Source: a virus
IMG/VR virus record: IMGVR_UViG_3300045988_042432
Strand: one strand, 5' to 3'
Length of the DNA: 64,000 nucleotides
Shown here: piece after piece, positions 2,908 through 42,487 of the stretch
How the letters are laid out: each line of letters opens with the position of its first letter
Position numbering within the stretch: position 1 is the stretch's first letter
Position numbers and translations under genes: made by a program
Notes under the pieces: generated by a model
Told to the model about the DNA's origin: nothing
Database searches by the model: none
The model's input: only the letters and a program-made list of their open reading frames with translations

Positions 2908-3039
2908 TGGTATAAATTTTAGTTATTGTTAATAATTCTGATTTAAGTTCGCAAATATATTATTATTTAATTTGACAATACAAAATTAGTTATATATTTC
3001 AATATTACCAAATGGTAATATAATTATTAATATATATTA

Positions 3040-3053
3040 TATATTGCCAACTC
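3040..3053 (+). repeat. TATATTGCCAACTC 14-mer, copy 1
   Basis: Exact 14-mer. Together with downstream TAATAT it resembles TTGCCA-N16-TAATAT. Confidence 0.85.
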
Positions 3054-3054
3054 A

Positions 3055-3070
3055 AATTCACAGTTAATAT
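3055..3070 (+). repeat. AATTCACAGTTAATAT 16-mer, copy 1 (copy 2 at 15018-15033)
   Basis: Exact 16-nt match between the two loci, read directly. Confidence 0.85.
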
Positions 3071-3074
3071 TAAG

Positions 3075-3088
3075 TATATTGCCAACTC
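3075..3088 (+). repeat. TATATTGCCAACTC 14-mer, copy 2
   Basis: Exact 14-mer, followed by a GC-rich hairpin (GCCCCttcgGGGC). Confidence 0.85.
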
Positions 3089-3166
3089 GGAACTTCATGA
3101 CGTGCTGTGGCAATCTGCGCCCCTTCGGGGCTTGCTTGCAATTAGTAAGATGAATAGAAATTAATA

Positions 3167-3180
3167 TATATTGCCAACTC
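3167..3180 (+). repeat. TATATTGCCAACTC 14-mer, copy 3
   Basis: Exact 14-mer, followed by a hairpin (CCCACtcccggGGTGGG). Confidence 0.85.
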
Positions 3181-3238
3181 ACAAGTACGGGTGCTCAAAA
3201 TCACACCCCTCCCACTCCCGGGGTGGGTTGTCATATTA

Positions 3239-3252
3239 TATATTGCCAACTC
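3239..3252 (+). repeat. TATATTGCCAACTC 14-mer, copy 4
   Basis: Exact 14-mer. Confidence 0.85.
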
Positions 3253-3281: not shown

Positions 3282-3295
3282 GTATATTGCGGATA
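3282..3295 (+). repeat. degenerate 14-mer copy (TATATTGCGGATAC)
   Basis: The first 8 nt are identical to the 14-mer. Confidence 0.5.
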
Positions 3296-3507: not shown

Positions 3508-3531
3508 AGAACGGGTAAATAAGCCCGTTCT
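3508..3531 (+). promoter_or_regulatory. 8-bp hairpin upstream of the first + strand gene
   Basis: AGAACGGG-taaataag-CCCGTTCT, 30 nt upstream of ATG 3561. Confidence 0.4.
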
Positions 3532-3560
3532 ATATTGTTTCACTAATAAATTATTAAACT

Positions 3561-4043
3561 ATGAATTTAGCAGAATTACAAGAAGTTAACAAGAAGTTAC
3601 CGAAAGCAAGCAAAAACGAAATTGCGGCAGCTTTAAACCGTTTGGGTGTGAATCCTGATTCTATCAAGGTAGGCGACAAATTGAAGTTTCCCGCTGAAAT
3701 TAACGAATTTAACGGAACAATCACAAAAGGAGTTGTGAACGGTAATACATTCTTTCAAGTTGCAGTAGAGGTTAACGGAACGGCAAGAAACGTGTCTATC
3801 AATTCTTTGTTCCGGTCTTTTAACGACCGTGAAAACAACAAGCGTATTACACCGGTTGACATTCTTCCAGAGGCGGACAAAGACAAATGTATTTTCAATA
3901 TGTTTGAAAATAAGACAATAGCGGAATGTCTTGCAGATTTACAAGGTACGGAAGTAACCGCAAAGGCGATAGAAACGTTTGAAAGCGTCGCAAGAGACGG
4001 CAACCAAATGAACGTAAATGTCATTGCATATTGCAAGGAATAA
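3561..4043 (+). CDS. hypothetical protein (160 aa)
   Basis: Track ORF that is visibly more GC-rich than its neighbours. Confidence 0.65.
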   Translation: MNLAELQEVNKKLPKASKNEIAAALNRLGVNPDSIKVGDKLKFPAEINEFNGTITKGVVNGNTFFQVAVEVNGTARNVSINSLFRSFNDRENNKRITPVDILPEADKDKCIFNMFENKTIAECLADLQGTEVTAKAIETFESVARDGNQMNVNVIAYCKE

Positions 4044-4348: not shown

Positions 4349-4440
4349 ATGTGTAAAATGAATATTATTAAGAGTATGTAGGTCTGTGATAGATATGCAT
4401 ACTCACCTTTTGTTTGAGTTGACAATAATACTATATATTT

Positions 4441-4695
4441 ATGGACTACATCGAAGACGATTTCACAGATGCTCTAATTGATGCAATTTGTGAGAAATCA
4501 CCAAGCACTTGGTATACCTTAATAGGAGAGAACTTTGACCCAGACGAAGAGACAATAGTCAAGGAAGCTGACAATAAGAAGGACATTGAAGATGCATTTA
4601 ATGAAAGCAAAGACGACTTTGATTTATTATATGTAGTACTTAATGATGAATCTTATGCGGCATGTTCCAAAGGCTCTAAACTTATTTGGAAGTAA
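4441..4695 (+). CDS. acidic hypothetical protein (84 aa)
   Basis: Track ORF. Confidence 0.55.
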   Translation: MDYIEDDFTDALIDAICEKSPSTWYTLIGENFDPDEETIVKEADNKKDIEDAFNESKDDFDLLYVVLNDESYAACSKGSKLIWK

Positions 4696-4706
4696 ATAAC
4701 GATTAA

Positions 4707-4733
4707 AACCTCATGGTGTATAGGTTAACCATG
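4707..4733 (+). promoter_or_regulatory. start-codon leader motif, copy 1 (AACCT + hairpin with GTATAGGTTA loop)
   Basis: AACCT 4707-4711; stem CATGGT 4712-4717 / ACCATG 4728-4733. The loop AGGTT is complementary to the upstream AACCT. ATG 4731 lies in the 3' arm. Confidence 0.6.
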
Positions 4734-5030
4734 CGCACATTTATGGTATTCGAATACGTTCATTCAAGCGGAATTAAACTACGTCCAGCTAGACCTTTGA
4801 CTAACAGCATATTATACATTTACAATCCAATTGGCAACGAATGGATGCATTTGTGTAAAGAGGACATACATGGACATCTAGAGCTATTGACATGCTTTAG
4901 TAATGGTGCTACTATGTATCAAGTAATTGAAGGTCTTAAGAAGGTAGTAGAGTACTGGGGAGATGACTATCTCGTAGGTCGCAGAGACTTTTACAAAGAG
5001 ATTATAGACATCTATTCCTCACACCGATAA
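4731..5030 (+). CDS. hypothetical protein
   Basis: Track ORF 4713..5030. ATG 4731 is preferred by analogy with the other four motif-bearing genes; 4713 is the alternative. Confidence 0.55.
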   Translation: MRTFMVFEYVHSSGIKLRPARPLTNSILYIYNPIGNEWMHLCKEDIHGHLELLTCFSNGATMYQVIEGLKKVVEYWGDDYLVGRRDFYKEIIDIYSSHR

Positions 5031-5269
5031 CATCACAGGGTTTAGCTCTTCTAAGTAGTTGCAAATGCTTGGAATCCTTTACGTGCAAAATGGACATAAT
5101 GCATGTATTGCCCAAATTAAAACGTTCCTGTTTCACGCGTTAAAGCAGGAGTCCATTATGGTTGTTTTAATTACATTAATCTTTAAGTTTTAAACAGCGT
5201 CCTACATTGTTTGTGGGTTTTGGTATGGCTCCTCTGCCAAGTAATGCGTACAAAGAGCCACTAATCAAA

Positions 5270-5295
5270 AACCTCACACTGAATAGGTAAAGTGT
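5270..5295 (+). promoter_or_regulatory. start-codon leader motif, copy 2
   Basis: AACCT, then stem ACACT/AGTGT with loop GAATAGGTAA. ATG 5304 is 9 nt downstream. Confidence 0.6.
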
Positions 5296-5303
5296 ACATA
5301 GTT

Positions 5304-5591
5304 ATGAGTAAATACGATGATTATCACAGAGTTGACAATAGATATACCACAGCTATAGGAATGAGCGTGTGGAGATTCTTTAATATTGGCAAATATAAGA
5401 ATCAGAAAGTAAAAGACGTCTGTTACTCCAATCCATTCTATGTAGCATGGTGTCTGGAGAACTGGCAAGGATTCAGTCTTACTAGCTACGAACGTTCCAA
5501 TTACATGAAAGGATTAGAACGTCAGTTAGAGAAAGACCCTGAAGACCAAGAACTCATCTTAAAGGTGAGTAAATGTAAAACCATTGTATGA
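5304..5591 (+). CDS. hypothetical protein
   Basis: Track ORF 5292..5591 uses GTG. The first ATG is at 5304 (MSKYDDYHRV...). Confidence 0.55.
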   Translation: MSKYDDYHRVDNRYTTAIGMSVWRFFNIGKYKNQKVKDVCYSNPFYVAWCLENWQGFSLTSYERSNYMKGLERQLEKDPEDQELILKVSKCKTIV

Positions 5592-5890
5592 TTATTTTTA
5601 CAGAAATGATATAGTCATCCACCATAATGGGTACGCCCGGAGACTAATGCAGAGCATCTCTTATACCAAACAGTATCTTCCTTTAATACTGGAGAGATGT
5701 CTTATCGTGAGATAAGGCAAAGGAGTGTGGCACAGGAAGGTGGATTCCTTTACTTGTAATAATATTTTTGTTCGTTTTATTACAGCATATCCTCCCGTGA
5801 CGGGAGTGGCATCATGACTAAGCCTTTACGTGGCGATGCTATAAGTAAGTCAATAGACTGAAACTAATTAGTCATAATTAACCATTAAAG

Positions 5891-5915
5891 ACCTCACAAC
5901 GTATAGGTAAGTTGT
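5891..5915 (+). promoter_or_regulatory. start-codon leader motif, copy 3
   Basis: ACCT, then stem ACAAC/GTTGT with loop GTATAGGTAA. ATG 5924 follows. Confidence 0.6.
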
Positions 5916-5923
5916 AGTAAATC

Positions 5924-6214
5924 ATGAAACAGTATTTTTATTTAGTGACTAAATTAGTAAATGGAGAACTGACTCCACTTAGAATCTTTTTGCAATATAA
6001 GCTAGCCATTAGATTTGGAAGAAATTACGCAACTAAACACCCATATGCTTTAGTAGGTTTACACAAACAAGTAATATCTAACAGTGCAGACATTACTTGG
6101 ATATGTAATCTATATCCTTGGAATCAGGTAGAACCAGACATGATTGAAGCGGAAGAGGAGGTAATGCTTGATATCCTTGCTGATAACAACATGCTTATTG
6201 ACCGTAAATCTTGA
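5924..6214 (+). CDS. hypothetical protein (96 aa)
   Basis: Track ORF. Confidence 0.55.
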   Translation: MKQYFYLVTKLVNGELTPLRIFLQYKLAIRFGRNYATKHPYALVGLHKQVISNSADITWICNLYPWNQVEPDMIEAEEEVMLDILADNNMLIDRKS

Positions 6215-6244
6215 TTACATCATTAATAATTAACGTTTCACTAA

Positions 6245-6270
6245 AACCTTGCATTGTATAGGTAAAATGC
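6245..6270 (+). promoter_or_regulatory. start-codon leader motif, copy 4
   Basis: AACCT, then stem GCATT/AATGC with loop GTATAGGTAA. ATG 6271 abuts the 3' arm. Confidence 0.6.
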
Positions 6271-7098
6271 ATGAAGATTATGGAATTATCACTTGTTAAC
6301 AAACTGAAACAATTACCAATCGAACCGACTTACGTGGTTACAGAGAAGAATGCCGACATATTGAACGGCCTTCATCTTCTTGAGACAAACAGGGAAATTA
6401 AGTCTAACAAGGTAAACGACCTAGTTAAGGCTATTCAAGAAGGGCTCTTCATTCCTCCTATCATTGTGTCTGCTGGAACATTCACTGTCATCGAAGGTGC
6501 TCACAGAACATCTGCATATAGAGAATGCTTGCGCAGAGGTATTCCCTTTACTATGAAGTTGTACTTGGTAAAGGATGTTGAAGCAACCGAAACGTGTATG
6601 CTTATCAATAACACACAGAAGAGTTGGAAGGCAAATGACAGACTCATATCATATGTCAAGCAAAAGAAGAGCTCATACATAATACTGAAATCCTTCATGG
6701 AGAAGCATTCTAAGTATTTCATGAAAGGTACAATGTATAACGTGACGGCAGCTCTAGCACTTCTAAGTCCTCTATCTTCTAATAATGCTGAAGCTGCATT
6801 CAGAGACGGCACCTTGGTTATTACGGAAGAAATGGTGAAGAAAGCTATGCCTACGCTTAATCAACTGAAACTTATTGGCGAAATCCTTGGTGCTAGAAGA
6901 GGTACAGGAGAGGCTGACTTGTCTCCGTTTAGGAGATATAGAATCAAGGATTGGATACGAGCCAGAGATATTATGAATATTTCTGTAGACCAGTTCATGA
7001 ATCGGTTGAAGCGTAGAGTCGATTCCGGTAGGTGGGAAGAACCTTCAGAAAAGAATTGGTTCAATTCTTACATAGAAGTGGCATCGTTAAAACGCTAA
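6271..7098 (+). CDS. ParB-like nuclease domain protein
   Basis: Track ORF of 275 aa. PPIIVSAGTFTVIEGAHRTSAY resembles the ParB/Srx-fold (i-iDG-HR) motif. Confidence 0.5.
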   Translation: MKIMELSLVNKLKQLPIEPTYVVTEKNADILNGLHLLETNREIKSNKVNDLVKAIQEGLFIPPIIVSAGTFTVIEGAHRTSAYRECLRRGIPFTMKLYLVKDVEATETCMLINNTQKSWKANDRLISYVKQKKSSYIILKSFMEKHSKYFMKGTMYNVTAALALLSPLSSNNAEAAFRDGTLVITEEMVKKAMPTLNQLKLIGEILGARRGTGEADLSPFRRYRIKDWIRARDIMNISVDQFMNRLKRRVDSGRWEEPSEKNWFNSYIEVASLKR

Positions 7099-7124
7099 GG
7101 AGTATTACATTTCCATATTTTTAG

Positions 7125-7151
7125 AACCTGGCAGTGAGTAGGTTAACTGCC
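7125..7151 (+). promoter_or_regulatory. start-codon leader motif, copy 5
   Basis: AACCT, then stem GGCAGT/ACTGCC with loop GAGTAGGTTA. ATG 7161 follows. Confidence 0.6.
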
Positions 7152-7160
7152 AACTTATCT

Positions 7161-7673
7161 ATGACTAATGAATTAGCAGAGGAATACAGAGAGCTTAAAC
7201 GTAACTTAATACCCATATTGTTACAGACATGTGGTAAAGAGCGTTTATGTGATGCTGTAGACAAATGGTTATTAGTAAAATCCGGTATCAAAGTAATATC
7301 TAAATCATGGTATGAAGGTGGATTGCCTGGTAAAGAGTATGTGGTAATTAAGGATACTTCAGTACTTGCTAGCTATCCCTCTAAAGGTGCTAATTATGAA
7401 CATCGTCTTGCGAGGTATAGAGCCTACACTAAGGCATTTAACCATGTAAGAGAAGAAGGAATACCTTTGGCTCCTATACAGGTTGATAAATTTACCAAAG
7501 TACTTGTCAATGGAGTAACACTATGCCTTATCGGAACTTTTGAAGGTAAATCAGAGAATGACTTTATCAAAGAGATATCTGGTAAGGTTTACGTAAAGGC
7601 AGGTACTGATTCGGTAGATGTTATTAATCTACAAACTAGAAGAACTAAAAGATATAAAGTTCAGTACACATGA
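7161..7673 (+). CDS. hypothetical protein
   Basis: Track ORF 7134..7673 uses GTG. The first ATG is at 7161. Confidence 0.55.
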   Translation: MTNELAEEYRELKRNLIPILLQTCGKERLCDAVDKWLLVKSGIKVISKSWYEGGLPGKEYVVIKDTSVLASYPSKGANYEHRLARYRAYTKAFNHVREEGIPLAPIQVDKFTKVLVNGVTLCLIGTFEGKSENDFIKEISGKVYVKAGTDSVDVINLQTRRTKRYKVQYT

Positions 7674-8260: not shown

Positions 8261-8503
8261 ATGGATATAAAGAACAGCCCTATAGTTAAACATGCAATTA
8301 ACAATGACAAATCTCTTCTTCCCGGAATCATCGCTTACAGCTGCAAAGAAGCTATAGTAATCGCTAAGAGAGAATGCGGTGATTTTATAGACTTCGCCAA
8401 GGAGTGGATACAGTCCTCCAAACAGCTTTGCGAAGAAGAGAACATTCCATGGGAACAGATTAGGACAGCAACTGGAGATTCTATTGATAATTATATATCA
8501 TAA
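8261..8503 (+). CDS. hypothetical protein (80 aa)
   Basis: Track ORF. Confidence 0.55.
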   Translation: MDIKNSPIVKHAINNDKSLLPGIIAYSCKEAIVIAKRECGDFIDFAKEWIQSSKQLCEEENIPWEQIRTATGDSIDNYIS

Positions 8504-8521
8504 TCTCCTTTCCGTCTAAAA

Positions 8522-8595
8522 GAGAGTCTGATGAGTCGTTGAAAATTACGACGAAACTTCACTGTGATTTGGCACGTCACGGTGGAGTCACTCTT
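8522..8595 (+). ncRNA. hammerhead self-cleaving ribozyme (stem I open, type I topology)
   Basis: Stem I is GAGAGT 8522-8527 / ACTCTT 8590-8595. Core CTGATGA 8528-8534. Stem II GTCGT/ACGAC 8535-8552. GAAA 8553-8556. Stem III is 11 bp, 8557-8567/8577-8587. T 8588 pairs with A15.1 and C17 is 8589. Predicted cut is 8589^8590. Confidence 0.85.
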
Positions 8596-8612: not shown

Positions 8613-8774
8613 ATGAAACTCACTAAGAATAAGAAAGACAATATAATAATTAGTTCTGCCATTGGAGCATTAGTAATTATTAATATCATGTTGCCTACAG
8701 CTGGCGATTTTACATATGTAGCCGGAGCTATAGGTATTGTTGCGGCCATAGGAGTCTGGTTCTTACCAGACTAA
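8613..8774 (+). CDS. small membrane protein (53 aa)
   Basis: Own translation: MKLTKNKKDNIIISSAIGALVIINIMLPTAGDFTYVAGAIGIVAAIGVWFLPD*, with two hydrophobic segments. It starts 23 nt after the ribozyme cut site. Confidence 0.5.
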   Translation: MKLTKNKKDNIIISSAIGALVIINIMLPTAGDFTYVAGAIGIVAAIGVWFLPD

Positions 8775-10991: not shown

Positions 10992-11269
10992 AAGCAAGGT
11001 TATTAAAGAAACTTCGTAAGGAGTCAAAGAAGCTGAAATTAATAAGAGGTGAGGATTATCAATACATAGTTACTGATAGTCCTCATGACATATTAAGACC
11101 AAAGCTTGATACTTACTACAGTGGCACATACTACTGTGGTCAAGAATTATTATTTGACGAAGATGTAATTGCATGGTTACATCAATGCAGACGTAATTGG
11201 ATTCTGTCCGAGATTAAACGAATGCGTGTACATCTACGTAAATCTCGAATTAGAATATATAAAGAGTAA
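10988..11269 (+). CDS. basic hypothetical protein (93 aa)
   Basis: Track ORF with a 4-nt overlap. Confidence 0.6.
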   Translation: MKARLLKKLRKESKKLKLIRGEDYQYIVTDSPHDILRPKLDTYYSGTYYCGQELLFDEDVIAWLHQCRRNWILSEIKRMRVHLRKSRIRIYKE

Positions 11270-11295
11270 TTGTTTCACTAAAAGTTATTGAAATT

Positions 11296-16866: not shown

Positions 16867-16938
16867 GCCCCATTACTTCAGTGGTAGAAGAGCAAATTCT
16901 AAACTTGTATGGCGTTGGTTCGAGTCCAACATGGGGCA
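16867..16938 (+). tRNA. amber suppressor tRNA, anticodon CTA
   Basis: 72-nt cloverleaf. Acceptor GCCCCAT/ATGGGGC. D arm CTTC-AGTGGTA-GAAG. Anticodon arm GCAAA-TTCTAAA-CTTGT with CTA at 16899-16901 and an A31:C39 mismatch. T arm GTTGG-TTCGAGT-CCAAC. Confidence 0.8.
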
Positions 16939-16940
16939 CT

Positions 16941-29320: not shown

Positions 29321-30388
29321 ATGATAAATATAGTTTTAGGTAGTTTCTTCGGCGATTGCGGTAAGGGACAGACAGTTCACAACTTATGTAACAAGTACAT
29401 AGGTAAGCGAGAGTCTGTGTTAGTAGTCAGGTTTAGTGGTGGACATCAAGTAGGACATACTGTAAAGCATGGAGACATGATGCACACCTTTAGTAACTTT
29501 GGCAGCGGAACCTTACTTGGAGTGCCGACGTACTGGTCCGAATACTGTACTGTAGACCCAATTACCTCTATGTTGGAGGGTGCAGACTTAGCTAAAATGG
29601 GAGTTCATCCCATTGTTCAGTATCACCCTCACTGCCAAGTTGTAATTCCCTTCGATGTCTATTCCCAAGTTAATAACGAAGAGAACTTACGACATGGTAC
29701 TGTAGGTACAGGGTTTAAAGCTTGTTTGGACCGAGTTAAGGCAGGATACAGCTTAACAGTTGTAGATTGTATGAATCCTTACATACTGCGTGAGAAACTA
29801 AATGCCATAGTGGATAACTATTACAACATGTCTAGTAAATATCCTTCGATAGACCTAGACAACTGGTGTAGGTTAGCACATGCTTATTTCTTACATACAG
29901 GTACGGTTAATGAAGATTGCTTGTTGAATTATGATAACCTAGTGTTTGAAGGTTCACAGGGAATATTGCTTGACCAAAGATTCGGCATAATGCCTTATTG
30001 TACTCCGTCTAATACAACTTCACAAAACGCTTACGAGCTGTTGCGGAAAGCAGGTATACGTAAAGAAATCCAAACTTGTTATGTAACTCGTCCTTATATA
30101 ACAAGGCATGGTAACGGCCCGTTTCCTTCTGGAATGTCTGTTAGGGATGTCGATGACCCTAATAATAAGTTCAACGATTTCCAGAAGACGCTTAGGGCTA
30201 TTGATTTCGACAAAGACCTATTCGCACACAGTGTACGCATTAACCGTTCATTTAAGGTTCCTTATAGGAATGAACGAACGGAGAAATTGTACGTATCACA
30301 TTGGGATGAAGCATCTGACGCAGAGCGAGAAATGCTAGCAAATTTATGGATGTCGATACAGCCCATGATATTCGATAAGTTAGTTTAG
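29321..30388 (+). CDS. adenylosuccinate synthetase-like enzyme (short PurA/PurZ-family homolog)
   Basis: Track ORF of 355 aa. GDCGKGQ matches PurA [16 protein letters not shown] matches [34 protein letters not shown] matches [36 protein letters not shown] matches TRVGAGPFPT. The TTGRRRR motif is absent. Confidence 0.7.
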   Translation: [355 protein letters not shown]

Positions 30389-40474: not shown

Positions 40475-42487
40475 ATGGAATTTGTCAAGTTTAAAAGAGC
40501 AGTCCATGCGCAGTTTAATCAACTAGCTGCTGGTGCAGACATGCTCTTTCTGACTAATGTAGACAAGGACGCATTATGGGATTGTTACCTTAATTCCTTT
40601 CCGGAGGAAGAGAGACAGTCTCATAATTGCAACAATTGTAAACATTATATCAGACATTATGGTAGAGTTGTCGCCATTAAAGACAATAAAGTAGTAACCA
40701 TGTGGGAGAACCTACAGTTGGATGAACCTTATGCTACTGTAGCTAGAAATCTCGATGCATTAGTGAAATCAAAACCAGTTGTAGATGTTTTTATCACTCG
40801 TGATTATGAACTAGGAATTGATAGAAACAATGCCTATATTGACAGTTTGCAAGGTCCTAAAGTAATTACCTGGAATCATCTTTACTATCATATGCCAAAT
40901 CAATTGGTGTATACAGGAACTGAATCCGTATCTGCTGTAATGGGGACTTTACGCACAACTAAGGAAGTGTTCAAACGTGCACTGGAGGAATTAACTATCG
41001 ATTCTATAGAAACAGTTCTGGACTTAATAGGTCAGAATGCTTTATATAGAGGAGAACAGTTTAAAAATGACTTAAGTGTATTCCTGGGTCATAAAAGACA
41101 CTATGATTCATTACCTGATGAAGAGAAAGACAACTGGTGTTGGGCAAACTTCAATCGTGTAGGATGTGCACGCATTCGTAATACGGCAATTGGTACATTG
41201 TTGGTAAATATATCATCAGGACTTGAATTGGACGATTGTGTGACTGCATACGAACGTATCATGGCTCCAGAGAACTATCAAAGACCTAAGTCAATTGTTA
41301 CTAAAAGAATGATTGAGGAAGCACAGAAGAAAGTGCAGGAACTAGGTCTTATGGATTCTCTACCTCGTAGACATGCTGCCTTAGAGGATATAACAGTCAA
41401 CAATGTTATATTCGCTAACCGTGATGCCAAGAAGGTAATGGCCGGAAACATATTCGAGGAACTGGCCGCAGACACTAAAGTTAATCCTAAGAAGTTTGAC
41501 AAGTTAACTGAAATTAGCATTGATGATTTCATTGCTAATGTGGTACCCACTGCCACTAACATAGAAGTGTTAATGGAGAGTAGGCTGTCTAATAACTTAG
41601 TAACTCTTACAGCTCCTGTTAATAAGGATGCTAAGAATCTATTTAAATGGCCAAACAACTTTGCTTGGACATATAATGGAGGAGTAGCTGATTCTATTAA
41701 AGAGAAAGTAAGAGCTGCTGGTGGTCAGACTGAAGGCTTCTTAAGATGTTCATTAGCGTGGTCTAACTATGATGACTTGGATTTGCATGTCGTTGAACCT
41801 AATAATCTTGAAATTTATTACTCCAACAGAATCGGCAGAAGTGGTGGTAAGCTAGACGTGGATGAAAATGCCGGATATGGCAAAACTCGCAAACCCGTTG
41901 AGAACATTATATGGGTTAACGAACGCAAGATGCTTGAAGGTAAGTATGTTGTGTATGTTAATAACTTTCATTGTAGAGAATCTGTTGATACAGGATTTAC
42001 ATTGGAAATAGAACACAATGGAGAAGTCCGACAATTTGTCTATGACAAACCCGTTAAACATAAAGAGAATGTCATGGTTGCCGAGATTACTTACAGTAAA
42101 TCTAAAGGTATCCAAATAAGAGAGCTAATACCCAGTACTAGCCATTCGTCAGTAAGCCTATGGAATATTGATACTAACAAGTTCCATAAGGTGAACGTGA
42201 TGATGCTGTCCCCCAATTATTGGGATGAGCAGGGTATTGGCAATAAACATTACTTCTTTATGTTGGATGATTGCAAGAATCCGGAGCCTGTTCGTGGATT
42301 CTTTAACGAATATCTTAACAGTGAGCTAACTCCTCACCGTAAGGTATTTGAGGTTCTAGCTGATAAGATGAAGACTCCTTACCAAGAACATCAATTGAGT
42401 GGATTAGGGTTCTCATCTACTATGCGTAATTCCGTTATTGTTAAAGTGGACGGAACATTTAGTAGAACTTTAAAAGTCAATTTCTGA
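40475..42487 (+). CDS. large hypothetical protein (670 aa) with N-terminal CNNCKHY motif
   Basis: Track ORF. The C-terminal block LRCSLAWSNYDDLDLHVVEPNN..IYYSN....GGKLDVDENAG...ENIIW recalls a domain seen in vWA-associated proteins. The function is unknown. Confidence 0.7.
   Translation: MEFVKFKRAVHAQFNQLAAGADMLFLTNVDKDALWDCYLNSFPEEERQSHNCNNCKHYIRHYGRVVAIKDNKVVTMWENLQLDEPYATVARNLDALVKSKPVVDVFITRDYELGIDRNNAYIDSLQGPKVITWNHLYYHMPNQLVYTGTESVSAVMGTLRTTKEVFKRALEELTIDSIETVLDLIGQNALYRGEQFKNDLSVFLGHKRHYDSLPDEEKDNWCWANFNRVGCARIRNTAIGTLLVNISSGLELDDCVTAYERIMAPENYQRPKSIVTKRMIEEAQKKVQELGLMDSLPRRHAALEDITVNNVIFANRDAKKVMAGNIFEELAADTKVNPKKFDKLTEISIDDFIANVVPTATNIEVLMESRLSNNLVTLTAPVNKDAKNLFKWPNNFAWTYNGGVADSIKEKVRAAGGQTEGFLRCSLAWSNYDDLDLHVVEPNNLEIYYSNRIGRSGGKLDVDENAGYGKTRKPVENIIWVNERKMLEGKYVVYVNNFHCRESVDTGFTLEIEHNGEVRQFVYDKPVKHKENVMVAEITYSKSKGIQIRELIPSTSHSSVSLWNIDTNKFHKVNVMMLSPNYWDEQGIGNKHYFFMLDDCKNPEPVRGFFNEYLNSELTPHRKVFEVLADKMKTPYQEHQLSGLGFSSTMRNSVIVKVDGTFSRTLKVNF

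What the first reader, a model, noticed from the sequence alone, without database searches (positions are those of the whole stretch)
4707..7151. Conserved pseudoknot-like leader overlapping the start codons of five consecutive early genes
The copies are at 4707-4733, 5270-5295, 5891-5915, 6245-6270 and 7125-7151. Each has AACCT (GACCT in the third copy), a 5-6-bp stem whose sequence differs and covaries between copies (CATGGT/ACCATG, ACACT/AGTGT, ACAAC/GTTGT, GCATT/AATGC, GGCAGT/ACTGCC), and a 10-nt loop G(T/A)(A/G)TAGGT(A/T)A. The loop AGGT(T) is complementary to the upstream (A)ACCT, giving an a-b-a'-b' (H-type pseudoknot) arrangement. The ATG lies 0-9 nt after, or inside, the 3' arm. This is the layout of a translational operator or enhancer and points to a dedicated regulator of this gene set. 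Bacteroidetes largely lack Shine-Dalgarno initiation, so a structured initiation signal would be notable.
Basis: seen in the sequence. Interest (0 to 1): 0.7.

Follow-up and report, generated by a model that had tools for sequence, protein, structure and literature searches.

The report
Conserved leader hairpin of Bacteroidota phages
A small RNA hairpin with an invariant loop sits 8-10 bases ahead of the start codons of five neighbouring phage genes. The same element is widespread in phages and prophages of Bacteroidota, whose ribosomes ignore the usual ribosome-binding site, so it is probably an undescribed signal controlling the start of translation.

Summary
Exactly five copies of (T)AAAACCT / 5-6-bp stem / G(T/A)(A/G)TAGGT(A/T)A loop / stem' lie on the + strand at 4705-7163. 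A covariance model scores them 40.7-47.5 bits, and the next-best hit in the 64 kb scores 12 bits. Using in-frame downstream ATGs, the stem-to-ATG spacing is a constant 8-9 nt.

The element is not specific to this phage. More than 160 distinct copies occur in viral contigs, and 42 of 48 hairpin-bearing genomic loci are Bacteroidota. Stems covary freely, including at orthologous sites. G.U mismatches outnumber A.C by 23 to 3, so the sense strand folds. ACCU and the loop AGG never vary.

Eleven copies have a complete Bacteroidota promoter about 35 nt upstream, so the motif is transcribed into the leader and is not itself a promoter. It also travels with its gene at the edges of swapped gene cassettes.

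Best reading: a cis-acting leader RNA governing translation initiation, read by a very conserved partner. The pseudoknot and a dedicated phage regulator are unproven. No Rfam family or paper matches.

The parts
4705..4745 (+). Copy 1: AAAACCT 4705-4711; 5' arm CATGGT 4712-4717; loop GTATAGGTTA 4718-4727; 3' arm ACCATG 4728-4733; 9-nt spacer; ATG 4743 (ORF to 5030)
   Evidence: Sequence. Model hit at 47.5 bits. The identical unit with the same downstream gene occurs in L080, L127 and L169. Loop variant GTACAGGTTA occurs in L083/L205 and arm variant GCCATG (G.U) in L218.
5268..5306 (+). Copy 2: AAAACCT 5268-5274; C 5275; 5' arm ACACT 5276-5280; loop GAATAGGTAA 5281-5290; 3' arm AGTGT 5291-5295; 8-nt spacer; ATG 5304 (ORF to 5591, with an ExoX-like C-terminal domain)
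   Evidence: Model hit at 45.4 bits. Orthologous copies occur in 13 loci.
5887..5926 (+). Copy 3: AAAGACCT 5887-5894; C 5895; 5' arm ACAAC 5896-5900; loop GTATAGGTAA 5901-5910; 3' arm GTTGT 5911-5915; 8-nt spacer; ATG 5924 (ORF to 6214)
   Evidence: Model hit at 41.7 bits. This cassette (about 5872-6228) is absent from L080, L024 and L083 and present in L180. Its junctions lie about 20 nt upstream of ACCT.
6243..6282 (+). Copy 4: AAAACCT 6243-6249; 5' arm TGCATT 6250-6255; loop GTATAGGTAA 6256-6265; 3' arm AATGCA 6266-6271; 8-nt spacer; probable ATG 6280 (alternative in-frame ATG at 6271); ParB-like ORF to 7098
   Evidence: Model hit at 47.5 bits. The orthologous position in L080, L024, L083 and L062 has the same 5' flank GTTTCACTAAAACCT but a wholly different stem, GTGAGT/ACTCAT (with a G.U pair), and a diverged gene.
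7122..7163 (+). Copy 5: TAGAACCT 7122-7129; 5' arm GGCAGT 7130-7135; loop GAGTAGGTTA 7136-7145; 3' arm ACTGCC 7146-7151; 9-nt spacer; ATG 7161 (ORF to 7673)
   Evidence: Model hit at 40.7 bits. This is the most widely conserved copy, with the same hairpin in more than 20 loci. Homology with relatives resumes at 7097, about 27 nt upstream of ACCT.

Best explanation
The motif is a cis-acting RNA element in the leader or intercistronic spacer of individual cistrons. On the mRNA it forms a 5-6-bp hairpin whose stem only has to pair. The 9-10-nt loop (GUAUAGGUA(A)) and the 5' single-stranded AAAACCU are read sequence-specifically.

The base of the hairpin sits 8-10 nt upstream of the AUG. That is where mRNA leaves the 30S exit channel onto the platform, and it covers positions -12/-13, which Bacteroidia ribosomes normally read as unstructured adenines. 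The element therefore most likely sets the efficiency of translation initiation for each gene that carries it. It could act as a specialised initiation signal for SD-blind ribosomes, or as an operator for an RNA-binding factor.

The absolute invariance of ACCU and AGG across phages and prophages of several Bacteroidota classes suggests a very conserved reader. That would be the host translation apparatus or a conserved host or mobile-element protein, not a regulator private to this phage.

The element travels with its gene, so it also marks the 5' edge of exchangeable gene cassettes.

Shown: the RNA-strand hairpin, the invariant bases, the fixed spacing to AUG, the location inside transcripts, and the cassette edges.
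For: 1. Structure. The five core pairs are at least 97% paired in 93 distinct sequences, with 4-6 pair types each. The covariation score is 0.42 against 0.13 in shuffles (0 of 500 reach it), and slid controls pair in 13-37% of cells against 87% (seed alignment).

2. Orthologous compensation. In front of the same gene, stems change GCACT/AGTGC to ACACT/AGTGT to ACAAT/ATTGT. The G.U intermediate GCAAT/ATTGT is seen in L179 in front of the same downstream sequence.

3. Sense-strand folding. In an unbiased test, hairpins with 4 of 5 Watson-Crick pairs have 23 G.T/T.G mismatches against 3 A.C/C.A. In alignment A3 there are 20 G.U pairs against 4 other non-standard pairs.

4. Link to start codons. 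An ORF-opening ATG lies 18-23 nt after TAGGT in 54 of 82 hairpin copies, against 10 of 111 stemless pattern matches. The mode is 8 nt after the stem.

5. It is inside transcripts, not a promoter.
- Eleven of 166 distinct copies have TAnnTTTG upstream, nine of them at -33 to -42 from ACCT, and most have the full TTTG-N19-20-TAnnTTTG.
- Two of these have a divergent neighbour only 50-52 nt away.
- Within L060 and L349, sibling copies occur with and without their own promoter.
- Nothing is conserved upstream of -5.
- In 70 of 129 copies the upstream ORF ends within 40 nt of ACCT.

6. Invariant bases. All 19 copies found only by the model, and so not pre-selected by any search pattern, keep ACCU and AGG while other loop positions drift.

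7. Host context. Only 9 of 80 window genes have an SD-like motif. Bacteroidia ribosomes are SD-blind and use adenines at -3, -6, -12 and -13 plus low secondary structure (PMC7797042; PMC13000457). Motif-bearing initiation regions break these rules.

8. RNA-level processing occurs in the same operon. The hammerhead at 8502-8594 is conserved in relatives with compensatory changes.
Against: - There is no direct evidence for an effect on translation. No transcript ends, ribosome data or reader are available here.
- The hairpins are weak (median -5.0 kcal/mol) and individually not more stable than shuffled sequence.
- A hairpin covering -12/-13 would by the known rules be inhibitory, so 'enhancer' is not the default expectation.
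- The motif was not seen in front of recognisable core host genes. That is odd for a signal read by the host ribosome alone.
- A minority of copies have longer spacers, 13 to about 34 nt.
- No S21 or RegA homologue was found in the window.
- Most copies were collected with patterns that required ACCT and the loop, so the breadth of variation is under-sampled.
Confidence: 0.5

Rival explanations
1. RNA processing or stability element. The hairpin with its conserved loop and 5' ACCU is the recognition site of an endoribonuclease or a protective RNA-binding protein. Cutting polycistronic early mRNA there gives each cistron a defined short leader, or a 5'/3' hairpin that sets its half-life.
For: This shares all the RNA-level evidence: sense-strand G.U pairs, covariation, and location in leaders and between cistrons. 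A conserved hammerhead ribozyme 23 nt upstream of the ATG at 8613 shows that cistron-by-cistron RNA processing is used in this same operon. The analogy is the RNase III sites between T7 early genes (own knowledge).
Against: A pure processing or stability role does not by itself need an 8-10-nt spacing to the AUG. No nuclease candidate was identified. Stems of 5-6 bp are too short for RNase III. Copies about 22 nt from a primary 5' end would gain little from being cut.
Confidence: 0.2
2. One reading: an H-type pseudoknot (ACCU paired with the loop AGGU) that is the operator of a dedicated phage-encoded translational regulator of this early gene set.
For: The ACCU/AGGU complementarity is present in every copy. 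The layout of a hairpin plus conserved single-stranded bases next to the AUG resembles known phage operators. A 3-bp CCU:AGG helix with 2-3-nt crossing loops is sterically conceivable (inference).
Against: There is no covariation in the a-a' helix, because both sides are invariant even where the stem drifts freely. That argues for direct sequence read-out and not mere pairing. Three AGGC variants keep ACCU unchanged. The fifth pair, A-U, exists in only 22 of 90 copies. L3 is only 1-2 nt and L1 only 0-1 nt. The U of ACCU is in an extended stem in 18 of 93 copies, and the duplex is worth only -3.7 to -4.6 kcal/mol. The motif serves many unrelated genes in many phages and prophages, with no shared neighbouring protein family. 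No RegA-like gene is present in the window.
Confidence: 0.12
3. DNA-level expression signal. The motif is itself a compact promoter, either an N4-like hairpin promoter for a phage RNA polymerase or a PeSL-like composite of promoter and stem-loop, and transcripts start just upstream of the ATG.
For: The motif has a fixed distance to the ATG and one copy per gene. Many copies lie in spacers too short for a separate promoter. The loop TATAGG resembles the TATA|G initiation region of phage promoters (own knowledge). Some records annotate homologues of the 670-aa ORF 40475-42487 as an RNA polymerase. PeSLs combine promoter, stem-loop and start codon (PMC2839356).
Against: G.T pairs are on the sense strand, not the template strand. 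AT-rich 5-bp stems with 10-nt loops (-2.2 to -6.2 kcal/mol as DNA) are poor candidates for extrusion from duplex DNA. No -35-like or other box is conserved upstream. Eleven copies sit about 20-30 nt downstream of the inferred start of a complete host-type promoter, and siblings in the same locus lack one. The 670-aa ORF has no Pfam or PDB support as a polymerase.
Confidence: 0.07
4. Recombination site. The primary role is to mediate exchange of gene cassettes, like integron attC sites or PeSL-mediated shuffling, and expression effects are secondary.
For: Homology between the window and L080/L024 breaks near copy 3 and resumes just before copy 5. One cassette (5872-6228) is present or absent, and another (the ParB-like gene) is replaced. 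Junctions lie about 20-30 nt upstream of ACCT, with short repeats (ATAATTAAC) at them. A hairpin with variable stem sequence recalls attC.
Against: The orientation and the 8-10-nt spacing to the ATG are conserved. The conserved bases are in the loop and 5' flank, not in the stem as in attC. The junctions are upstream of the motif, not inside it. The shared sequence is too short and split for efficient homologous recombination. No integrase was noted next to the motif copies.
Confidence: 0.06
5. Transcription antitermination signal of the lambda nut type: a conserved linear box plus a hairpin with a conserved loop, acting on RNA polymerase.
For: The architecture of a linear conserved box (AAAACCU) plus a hairpin with variable stem and conserved loop is like boxA-boxB (own knowledge). 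It is on the RNA strand and lies in leaders.
Against: There is one copy per cistron, each at a fixed 8-10 nt from the AUG. That is not expected for nut or put sites, which occur once or twice per operon. No terminators are evident after the copies.
Confidence: 0.04

Closest known systems
PeSL (promoter-early stem-loop) cassettes of T4-type phages (PMC2839356, PMC4122927)
   Same: A short conserved regulatory unit repeated in front of consecutive small, mostly unknown early genes. It contains a stem-loop with G.T pairs, ends at the start codon, and marks the points where gene cassettes are inserted, deleted or swapped between close relatives.
   Different: PeSLs are defined by a strong sigma-70-type promoter plus a GC-rich terminator hairpin and an SD. 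Here no promoter box is part of the unit, and the hairpin is weak and AT-rich. The conserved sequence is the loop and a 5' ACCU. There is no SD, and the hairpin lies downstream of the transcription start where a promoter is present.
Phage translational operators (MS2/PP7 coat protein-replicase hairpins; T4 gp43 operator; T4 RegA sites; T4 gene 32 pseudoknot)
   Same: An RNA hairpin next to the initiation region whose stem sequence is free and whose loop and flanking bases are read specifically. In T4 RegA, several genes are controlled through similar sites.
   Different: No cognate binding protein was found. The AUG is outside the hairpin. The element is shared by many different phages and prophages across a phylum, whereas known operators are specific to one phage lineage.
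Structured mRNAs that dock on the 30S platform (E. coli rpsO pseudoknot; own knowledge) and the SD-ASD helix of F. johnsoniae rpsU (PMC13000457)
   Same: A helix placed about 8-14 nt upstream of the AUG, where the SD-ASD helix would lie on the platform.
   Different: Those are single-gene autoregulatory sites of ribosomal protein genes. Here the helix is intramolecular, carries a conserved loop, and serves mobile-element genes.
Lambda-type nut sites (boxA + boxB)
   Same: A conserved linear box followed by a hairpin with variable stem and conserved loop, functional as RNA.
   Different: Nut sites are not positioned relative to start codons and are not repeated in front of every gene.
N4 virion RNA polymerase hairpin promoters
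   Same: Covarying short stems with conserved neighbouring bases, upstream of a few early genes.
   Different: N4 hairpins are on the template strand with 3-nt loops. Here folding is on the sense strand, loops are 9-10 nt, and host-type promoters lie upstream of some copies.

Membership tests
H-type RNA pseudoknot | Second helix (ACCU with loop AGGU) supported by covariation or other evidence of pairing | tested here: inconclusive
   Three pairs never vary. A7-U28 holds in 90 of 91 copies. The fifth pair is formed in only 22 of 90. AGGC variants are not compensated.
H-type RNA pseudoknot | First helix (the hairpin stem) real | tested here: met
   Five core pairs are at least 97% paired with 4-6 pair types each. 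0 of 500 shuffles reach the covariation score.
H-type RNA pseudoknot | Connecting loops long enough to cross the grooves | tested here: inconclusive
   L1 is 0-1 nt and L3 is 1-2 nt (2-3 nt if only CCU:AGG pairs). In 18 of 93 copies the U of ACCU is in an extended stem. No 3D modelling was possible.
PeSL cassettes of T4-type phages | Consensus host-type promoter inside the unit | tested here: not met
   No information content upstream of -5. A host-type promoter is present upstream of only 11 of 166 copies.
PeSL cassettes of T4-type phages | Stable stem-loop acting as terminator | tested here: not met
   Median -5.0 kcal/mol, AT-rich 5-6-bp stems, 9-10-nt loop, no U-tract.
PeSL cassettes of T4-type phages | Lies at boundaries of exchanged ORFan cassettes | tested here: met
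   Homology breaks and resumes next to copies 3, 4 and 5.
N4-type hairpin promoter | Hairpin formed by the template strand, with a 3-nt loop | tested here: not met
   G.T against A.C is 23 to 3 on the sense strand. Loops are 9-10 nt.
N4-type hairpin promoter | Giant virion RNA polymerase encoded by the phage | not tested
   The largest ORF in the 64-kb window is 670 aa. The rest of the genome is not available.
Shine-Dalgarno ribosome-binding site | SD-like sequence 5-10 nt upstream of the AUG, readable by the host anti-SD | tested here: not met
   AGGU lies 15-17 nt upstream, inside the loop. Only 9 of 80 window genes have an SD-like 4-mer. Bacteroidia ribosomes are SD-blind (PMC7797042).
Phage translational operator (MS2/PP7/T4 type) | Hairpin with free stem and specific loop at the initiation region | tested here: met
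Phage translational operator (MS2/PP7/T4 type) | Cognate RNA-binding repressor encoded by the same genome | not testable with these tools
   No RegA or S21 homologue by tblastn. No protein family is shared by more than 20 of 118 loci. Binding cannot be tested.
Any Rfam 15 family | Match to a curated covariance model | tested here: not met
   No hit on any copy even at E up to 10.
Integron attC site | Conserved core sites within the stem, variable loop, folding of one DNA strand, integrase nearby | tested here: not met
   Here the loop and 5' flank are conserved and the stem is free. No integrase was noted among the neighbouring proteins that were scanned.

The most novel reading that the evidence does not exclude
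The hairpin is a ribosome-recruiting initiation signal evolved by Bacteroidota phages and mobile elements for ribosomes that cannot use Shine-Dalgarno pairing. In this reading an intramolecular helix docks on the 30S platform where the SD-ASD helix would sit. The invariant loop and ACCU contact rRNA or platform proteins (bS1, bS21, bS18, bS6). This would give incoming foreign genes privileged or switchable translation.
Probability: 0.2. Interest if true: 0.9.

Novelty: new variant of a known kind. Interest (0 to 1): 0.66.

Why it matters
[quoted passage not shown] How their phages and mobile elements secure translation of incoming genes is largely unknown.

A compact, easily recognised leader element is shared by phages and prophages from Bacteroidia to Flavobacteriia, Cytophagia and Chitinophagia. 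It is placed at a fixed distance from the start codon and has seven invariant bases. That makes the question directly testable with reporters, toeprinting and cryo-EM in Bacteroides or Flavobacterium.

It also gives three practical things:
- a marker for phage and mobile-element genes in metagenomes;
- a candidate expression part for Bacteroides engineering;
- a second example, after the PeSLs of T4-type phages, of a regulatory unit that delimits exchangeable gene cassettes.

Tried and rejected
1. Chance or low-complexity repeat. Rejected by the model scan and by the bimodal stem-length distribution of pattern matches.

2. Known RNA family. Rfam 15 shows nothing at E up to 10. Literal searches for the loop sequence in the paper library found only primers.

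3. Thermodynamic support. Single-copy folding is not significant as RNA or DNA, so it was dropped as evidence.

4. MAFFT alignment of all copies. It puts the 3' arm out of register between 9-nt and 10-nt loops. It was replaced by a fixed-geometry seed and Infernal realignment.

5. Promoter boxes. No conserved upstream element, and no general enrichment of TAnnTTTG.

6. Coupling to upstream termination. Stop codons are scattered from -80 to -4 with no fixed register.

7. Shared neighbouring protein as a candidate reader. None was found. I first read this as 'unrelated phage groups' and withdrew that reading, because 99 of 118 loci are chain-linked by shared proteins.

8. Phage S21, RegA or IF3-like genes in the window. 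None found.

9. The 670-aa ORF as an RNA polymerase. No Pfam or PDB support.

10. SD reading of AGGU. Rejected on position and host biology.

11. Resemblances of the motif to 16S rRNA segments and to T7/T3 promoters, recalled from memory. Not pursued, because there are too many degrees of freedom and no rRNA sequence was at hand.

12. The metagenome scan, structure prediction and large protein searches were not used, because none would discriminate between the remaining hypotheses.


Full report
**1. The observation**

Reading 4400-7500 shows the five copies as described. Each has (T)AAAACCT (GACCT in copy 3), 0-1 nt, a 5-6-bp stem of different sequence, a 10-nt loop G(T/A)(A/G)TAGGT(A/T)A, and the complementary arm.

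A loose pattern finds the five copies and only two unrelated minus-strand matches in 64 kb. A covariance model built from related copies and run without filters over both strands scores the five at 40.7-47.5 bits. Nothing else scores above 12.1 bits.

ORF listing and the sequence show that each copy precedes one of five consecutive + strand ORFs. If the in-frame ATGs at 4743, 5304, 5924, 6280 and 7161 are taken, the distance from the 3' arm is 9, 8, 8, 8 and 9 nt.

**2. Genome context**

- The window is part of a large phage with 28 tRNA genes, including a CTA-anticodon suppressor.
- Leftward genes occupy 1-2900 and rightward genes run from 3561.
- Replication genes and a PurZ-like enzyme are present.
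- Only 9 of 80 genes have an SD-like 4-mer at -16 to -6.
- The Bacteroidota promoter consensus TTTG-N17-23-TAnnTTTG occurs 8 times against 2.7 expected. Two of these drive the leftward genes from 2952-3012.
- The five downstream proteins are small unknowns, apart from one ExoX-like C-terminal domain and one ParB-like protein.

**3. The motif is a large family**

Of 371 pattern matches, stem lengths are bimodal: 174 have 0-3 pairs and 197 have at least 4. About 80 distinct hairpins result.

The model finds 166 copies in 100 loci, giving 93 distinct rows among the 150 aligned.

- The five core pairs are at least 97% paired, with 4-6 pair types each.
- The covariation score is 0.42 against 0.13 in shuffles (0 of 500 reach it).
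- Slid controls pair in 13-37% of cells against 87%.
- Orthologous copies in front of the same gene differ by compensatory changes. A G.U intermediate, GCAAT/ATTGT in L179, is seen in front of the same downstream sequence.
- The window's copy 4 and its orthologues have entirely different stems behind an identical 5' flank.

**4. Which strand folds**

I chose the loop register by Watson-Crick pairs only. Hairpins with 4 of 5 such pairs then have 23 G.T/T.G mismatches against 3 A.C/C.A. Alignment A3 has 20 G.U pairs against 4 other non-standard pairs. The sense strand is therefore the folded one. This fits RNA and excludes an N4-type template-strand hairpin.

As DNA the stems are worth only -2.2 to -6.2 kcal/mol with 10-nt loops, so they are poor candidates for extrusion from duplex DNA.

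**5. Link to start codons**

An ATG opening at least 40 codons lies 18-23 nt after the T of TAGGT in 54 of 82 hairpin copies, but in only 10 of 111 stemless pattern matches. The few exceptions are a longer spacer in one mobile element shared by three Flavobacteriales genomes, or chance matches.

**6. Not a promoter, but part of the transcript**

- Nothing is conserved upstream of about -5 from ACCT.
- TAnnTTTG is not generally enriched upstream.
- In 70 of 129 copies the upstream ORF ends within 40 nt of ACCT. Stop codons fall in no fixed register and upstream ORFs almost never run into the motif.
- Eleven of 166 distinct copies have a -7 box upstream, nine of them starting 33-42 nt upstream of ACCT. 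Most have the full TTTG-N19-20-TAnnTTTG.
- Two of these have a divergent neighbour only 50-52 nt away.
- With transcription starting a few nt after the -7 box (own knowledge of Bacteroides promoters), the motif begins about 20-30 nt into the mRNA.
- In L060 and L349, sibling copies occur both with such a promoter and directly after an upstream ORF without one.

The element is therefore a per-cistron RNA signal that is used in primary leaders and between cistrons. The five window copies are of the second kind.

**7. Invariant bases and the pseudoknot**

ACCU and the loop AGG are invariant in all 93 rows. This includes 19 rows that no search pattern had pre-selected, where other loop positions vary. 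Because both sides are frozen there is no covariation for the proposed ACCU:AGGU helix.

Several points weigh against it:
- Three AGGC variants are uncompensated.
- The fifth pair, A-U, is formed in only 22 of 90 copies.
- The crossing loops would be 0-1 and 1-2 nt.
- The U of ACCU is in an extended stem in 18 of 93 copies.
- The duplex is worth -3.7 to -4.6 kcal/mol.

A three-pair CCU:AGG contact cannot be excluded. But the contrast between a freely drifting stem and frozen ACCU/AGG argues that these bases are read directly by a partner.

**8. Host range and cargo**

A scan of one genome per prokaryotic species gave 86 stretches. Of the 48 loci with the hairpin whose titles are shown, 42 are Bacteroidota. 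They include Bacteroidales, Flavobacteriales, Cytophagales, Chitinophagales, Sphingobacteriales and Marinilabiliales. The stemless hits are scattered over other phyla, as expected for chance.

Downstream genes include ParB/KorB, DUF932, a PDDEXK-like DUF3799, NADAR and several PHROG families of unknown function. This is prophage or mobile-element cargo.

No protein family occurs in more than 20 of 118 motif loci, although 99 loci are chain-linked by mosaic sharing. The window encodes no S21 or RegA homologue.

**9. Cassette edges**

Compared with L080 and L024, homology runs up to about 20 nt before copy 3 and resumes about 27 nt before copy 5.
- The window carries an extra cassette (about 5872-6228: motif copy 3 plus a 96-aa gene).
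- It also carries a replaced ParB-like cassette.
- Short repeats (ATAATTAAC) lie at the junctions.

So the motif travels with its downstream gene. This parallels the PeSL units of T4-type phages, but without their defining promoter and terminator.

**10. Interpretation**

Bacteroidia ribosomes are SD-blind and use adenines at -3, -6, -12 and -13 plus low secondary structure (PMC7797042; PMC13000457). In motif-bearing genes, -12/-13 lie in the 3' arm of the hairpin. The hairpin base is where the mRNA leaves the exit channel onto the platform.

The best-supported reading is a cis-acting leader RNA that controls translation initiation and is read by a very conserved partner (confidence about 0.5). 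Whether it enhances or represses is open.

Rival readings:
- a processing or stability site (0.2), made plausible by the conserved hammerhead in the same operon;
- a promoter (0.07);
- a recombination site (0.06);
- a nut-like antiterminator (0.04).

**11. Novelty**

No Rfam family matches and no paper in the library matches. This is a new family of a known general kind, a leader hairpin or operator. It is unusual for its phylum-wide spread in mobile elements, its seven invariant bases and its fixed position in an SD-less translation system.

Noticed in passing
window 8502-8594 (+): A well-formed hammerhead ribozyme. The core is CUGAUGAG (8528-8535) ... CGAAAC ... GUC|A, with the cleavage site at 8589/8590, 23 nt upstream of the ATG at 8613. 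The minimum-energy fold reproduces the three stems (-27.4 kcal/mol, z -2.2). Rfam scores (21-24 bits) are below the gathering thresholds, but the element is conserved in 19 related loci. Stems II and III show compensatory changes in L062, L198 and L170.
   Followed up: yes
window 5592-5890 (+): The 300-nt non-coding gap before copy 3 is conserved in about 20 related loci, more widely than the flanking genes. It holds two almost invariant blocks (about 5631-5742 and 5795-5875) with covarying stems (alignment A4). These are candidate structured non-coding RNAs with no Rfam match.
   Followed up: partly
window 5031-5270 (+): The 240-nt non-coding gap before copy 2 is also conserved (84-99% identity) in 18 loci, including the otherwise divergent L062. 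Its function is unknown and it was not analysed for structure.
   Followed up: partly
window 3040-3252 (+): Four exact direct repeats of TATATTGCCAACTC start at 3040, 3075, 3167 and 3239, with a degenerate fifth near 3284. Several are followed by GC-rich hairpins (for example 3118-3132). They lie in the divergent control region between leftward and rightward genes, and the same array is found in relatives (3-4 copies in L080, L083, L218, L262, L267 and L275). This is possibly an array of early promoters or small RNAs.
   Followed up: partly
window 3530-3546, 6228-6244, 11265-11281: A shared (TA..T)GTTTCACTAA sequence lies just upstream of the ATGs at 3561 and 11296 and directly abuts motif copy 4. 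It could be a promoter-like or leader element. The 9-mer alone is not enriched over chance in the window.
   Followed up: partly
window 29321-30388 (+): A PurZ-like adenylosuccinate synthetase homologue (PHROG 1211, Pfam Adenylsucc_synt). It hints that this phage may replace adenine by 2-aminoadenine in its DNA.
   Followed up: no
window 9450-45352, e.g. 16867-16939: There are 28 tRNA genes, including a suppressor tRNA with anticodon CTA that reads TAG. This suggests TAG is recoded in part of the genome.
   Followed up: no
window 40475-42487 (+): A 670-aa protein is about 47% identical to a conserved protein of Ackermannviridae and Bacillus Tsarbomba-like phages (PHROG 1735, unknown function). 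Some records annotate it as a DNA-directed RNA polymerase, but it has no Pfam or PDB sequence match.
   Followed up: partly
window 2952-3012 (-): Two tandem perfect Bacteroidota-type promoters (TTTG-N-TAnnTTTG) face the leftward gene block.
   Followed up: no
L060 (327-kb viral contig), L349 and L299: In these loci, repeated units of a full host promoter, about 25 nt, the motif, about 10 nt and the ATG precede several small genes, with nearly identical promoter and leader sequence. This is a closer analogue of the T4-type PeSL cassettes than the window itself.
   Followed up: partly
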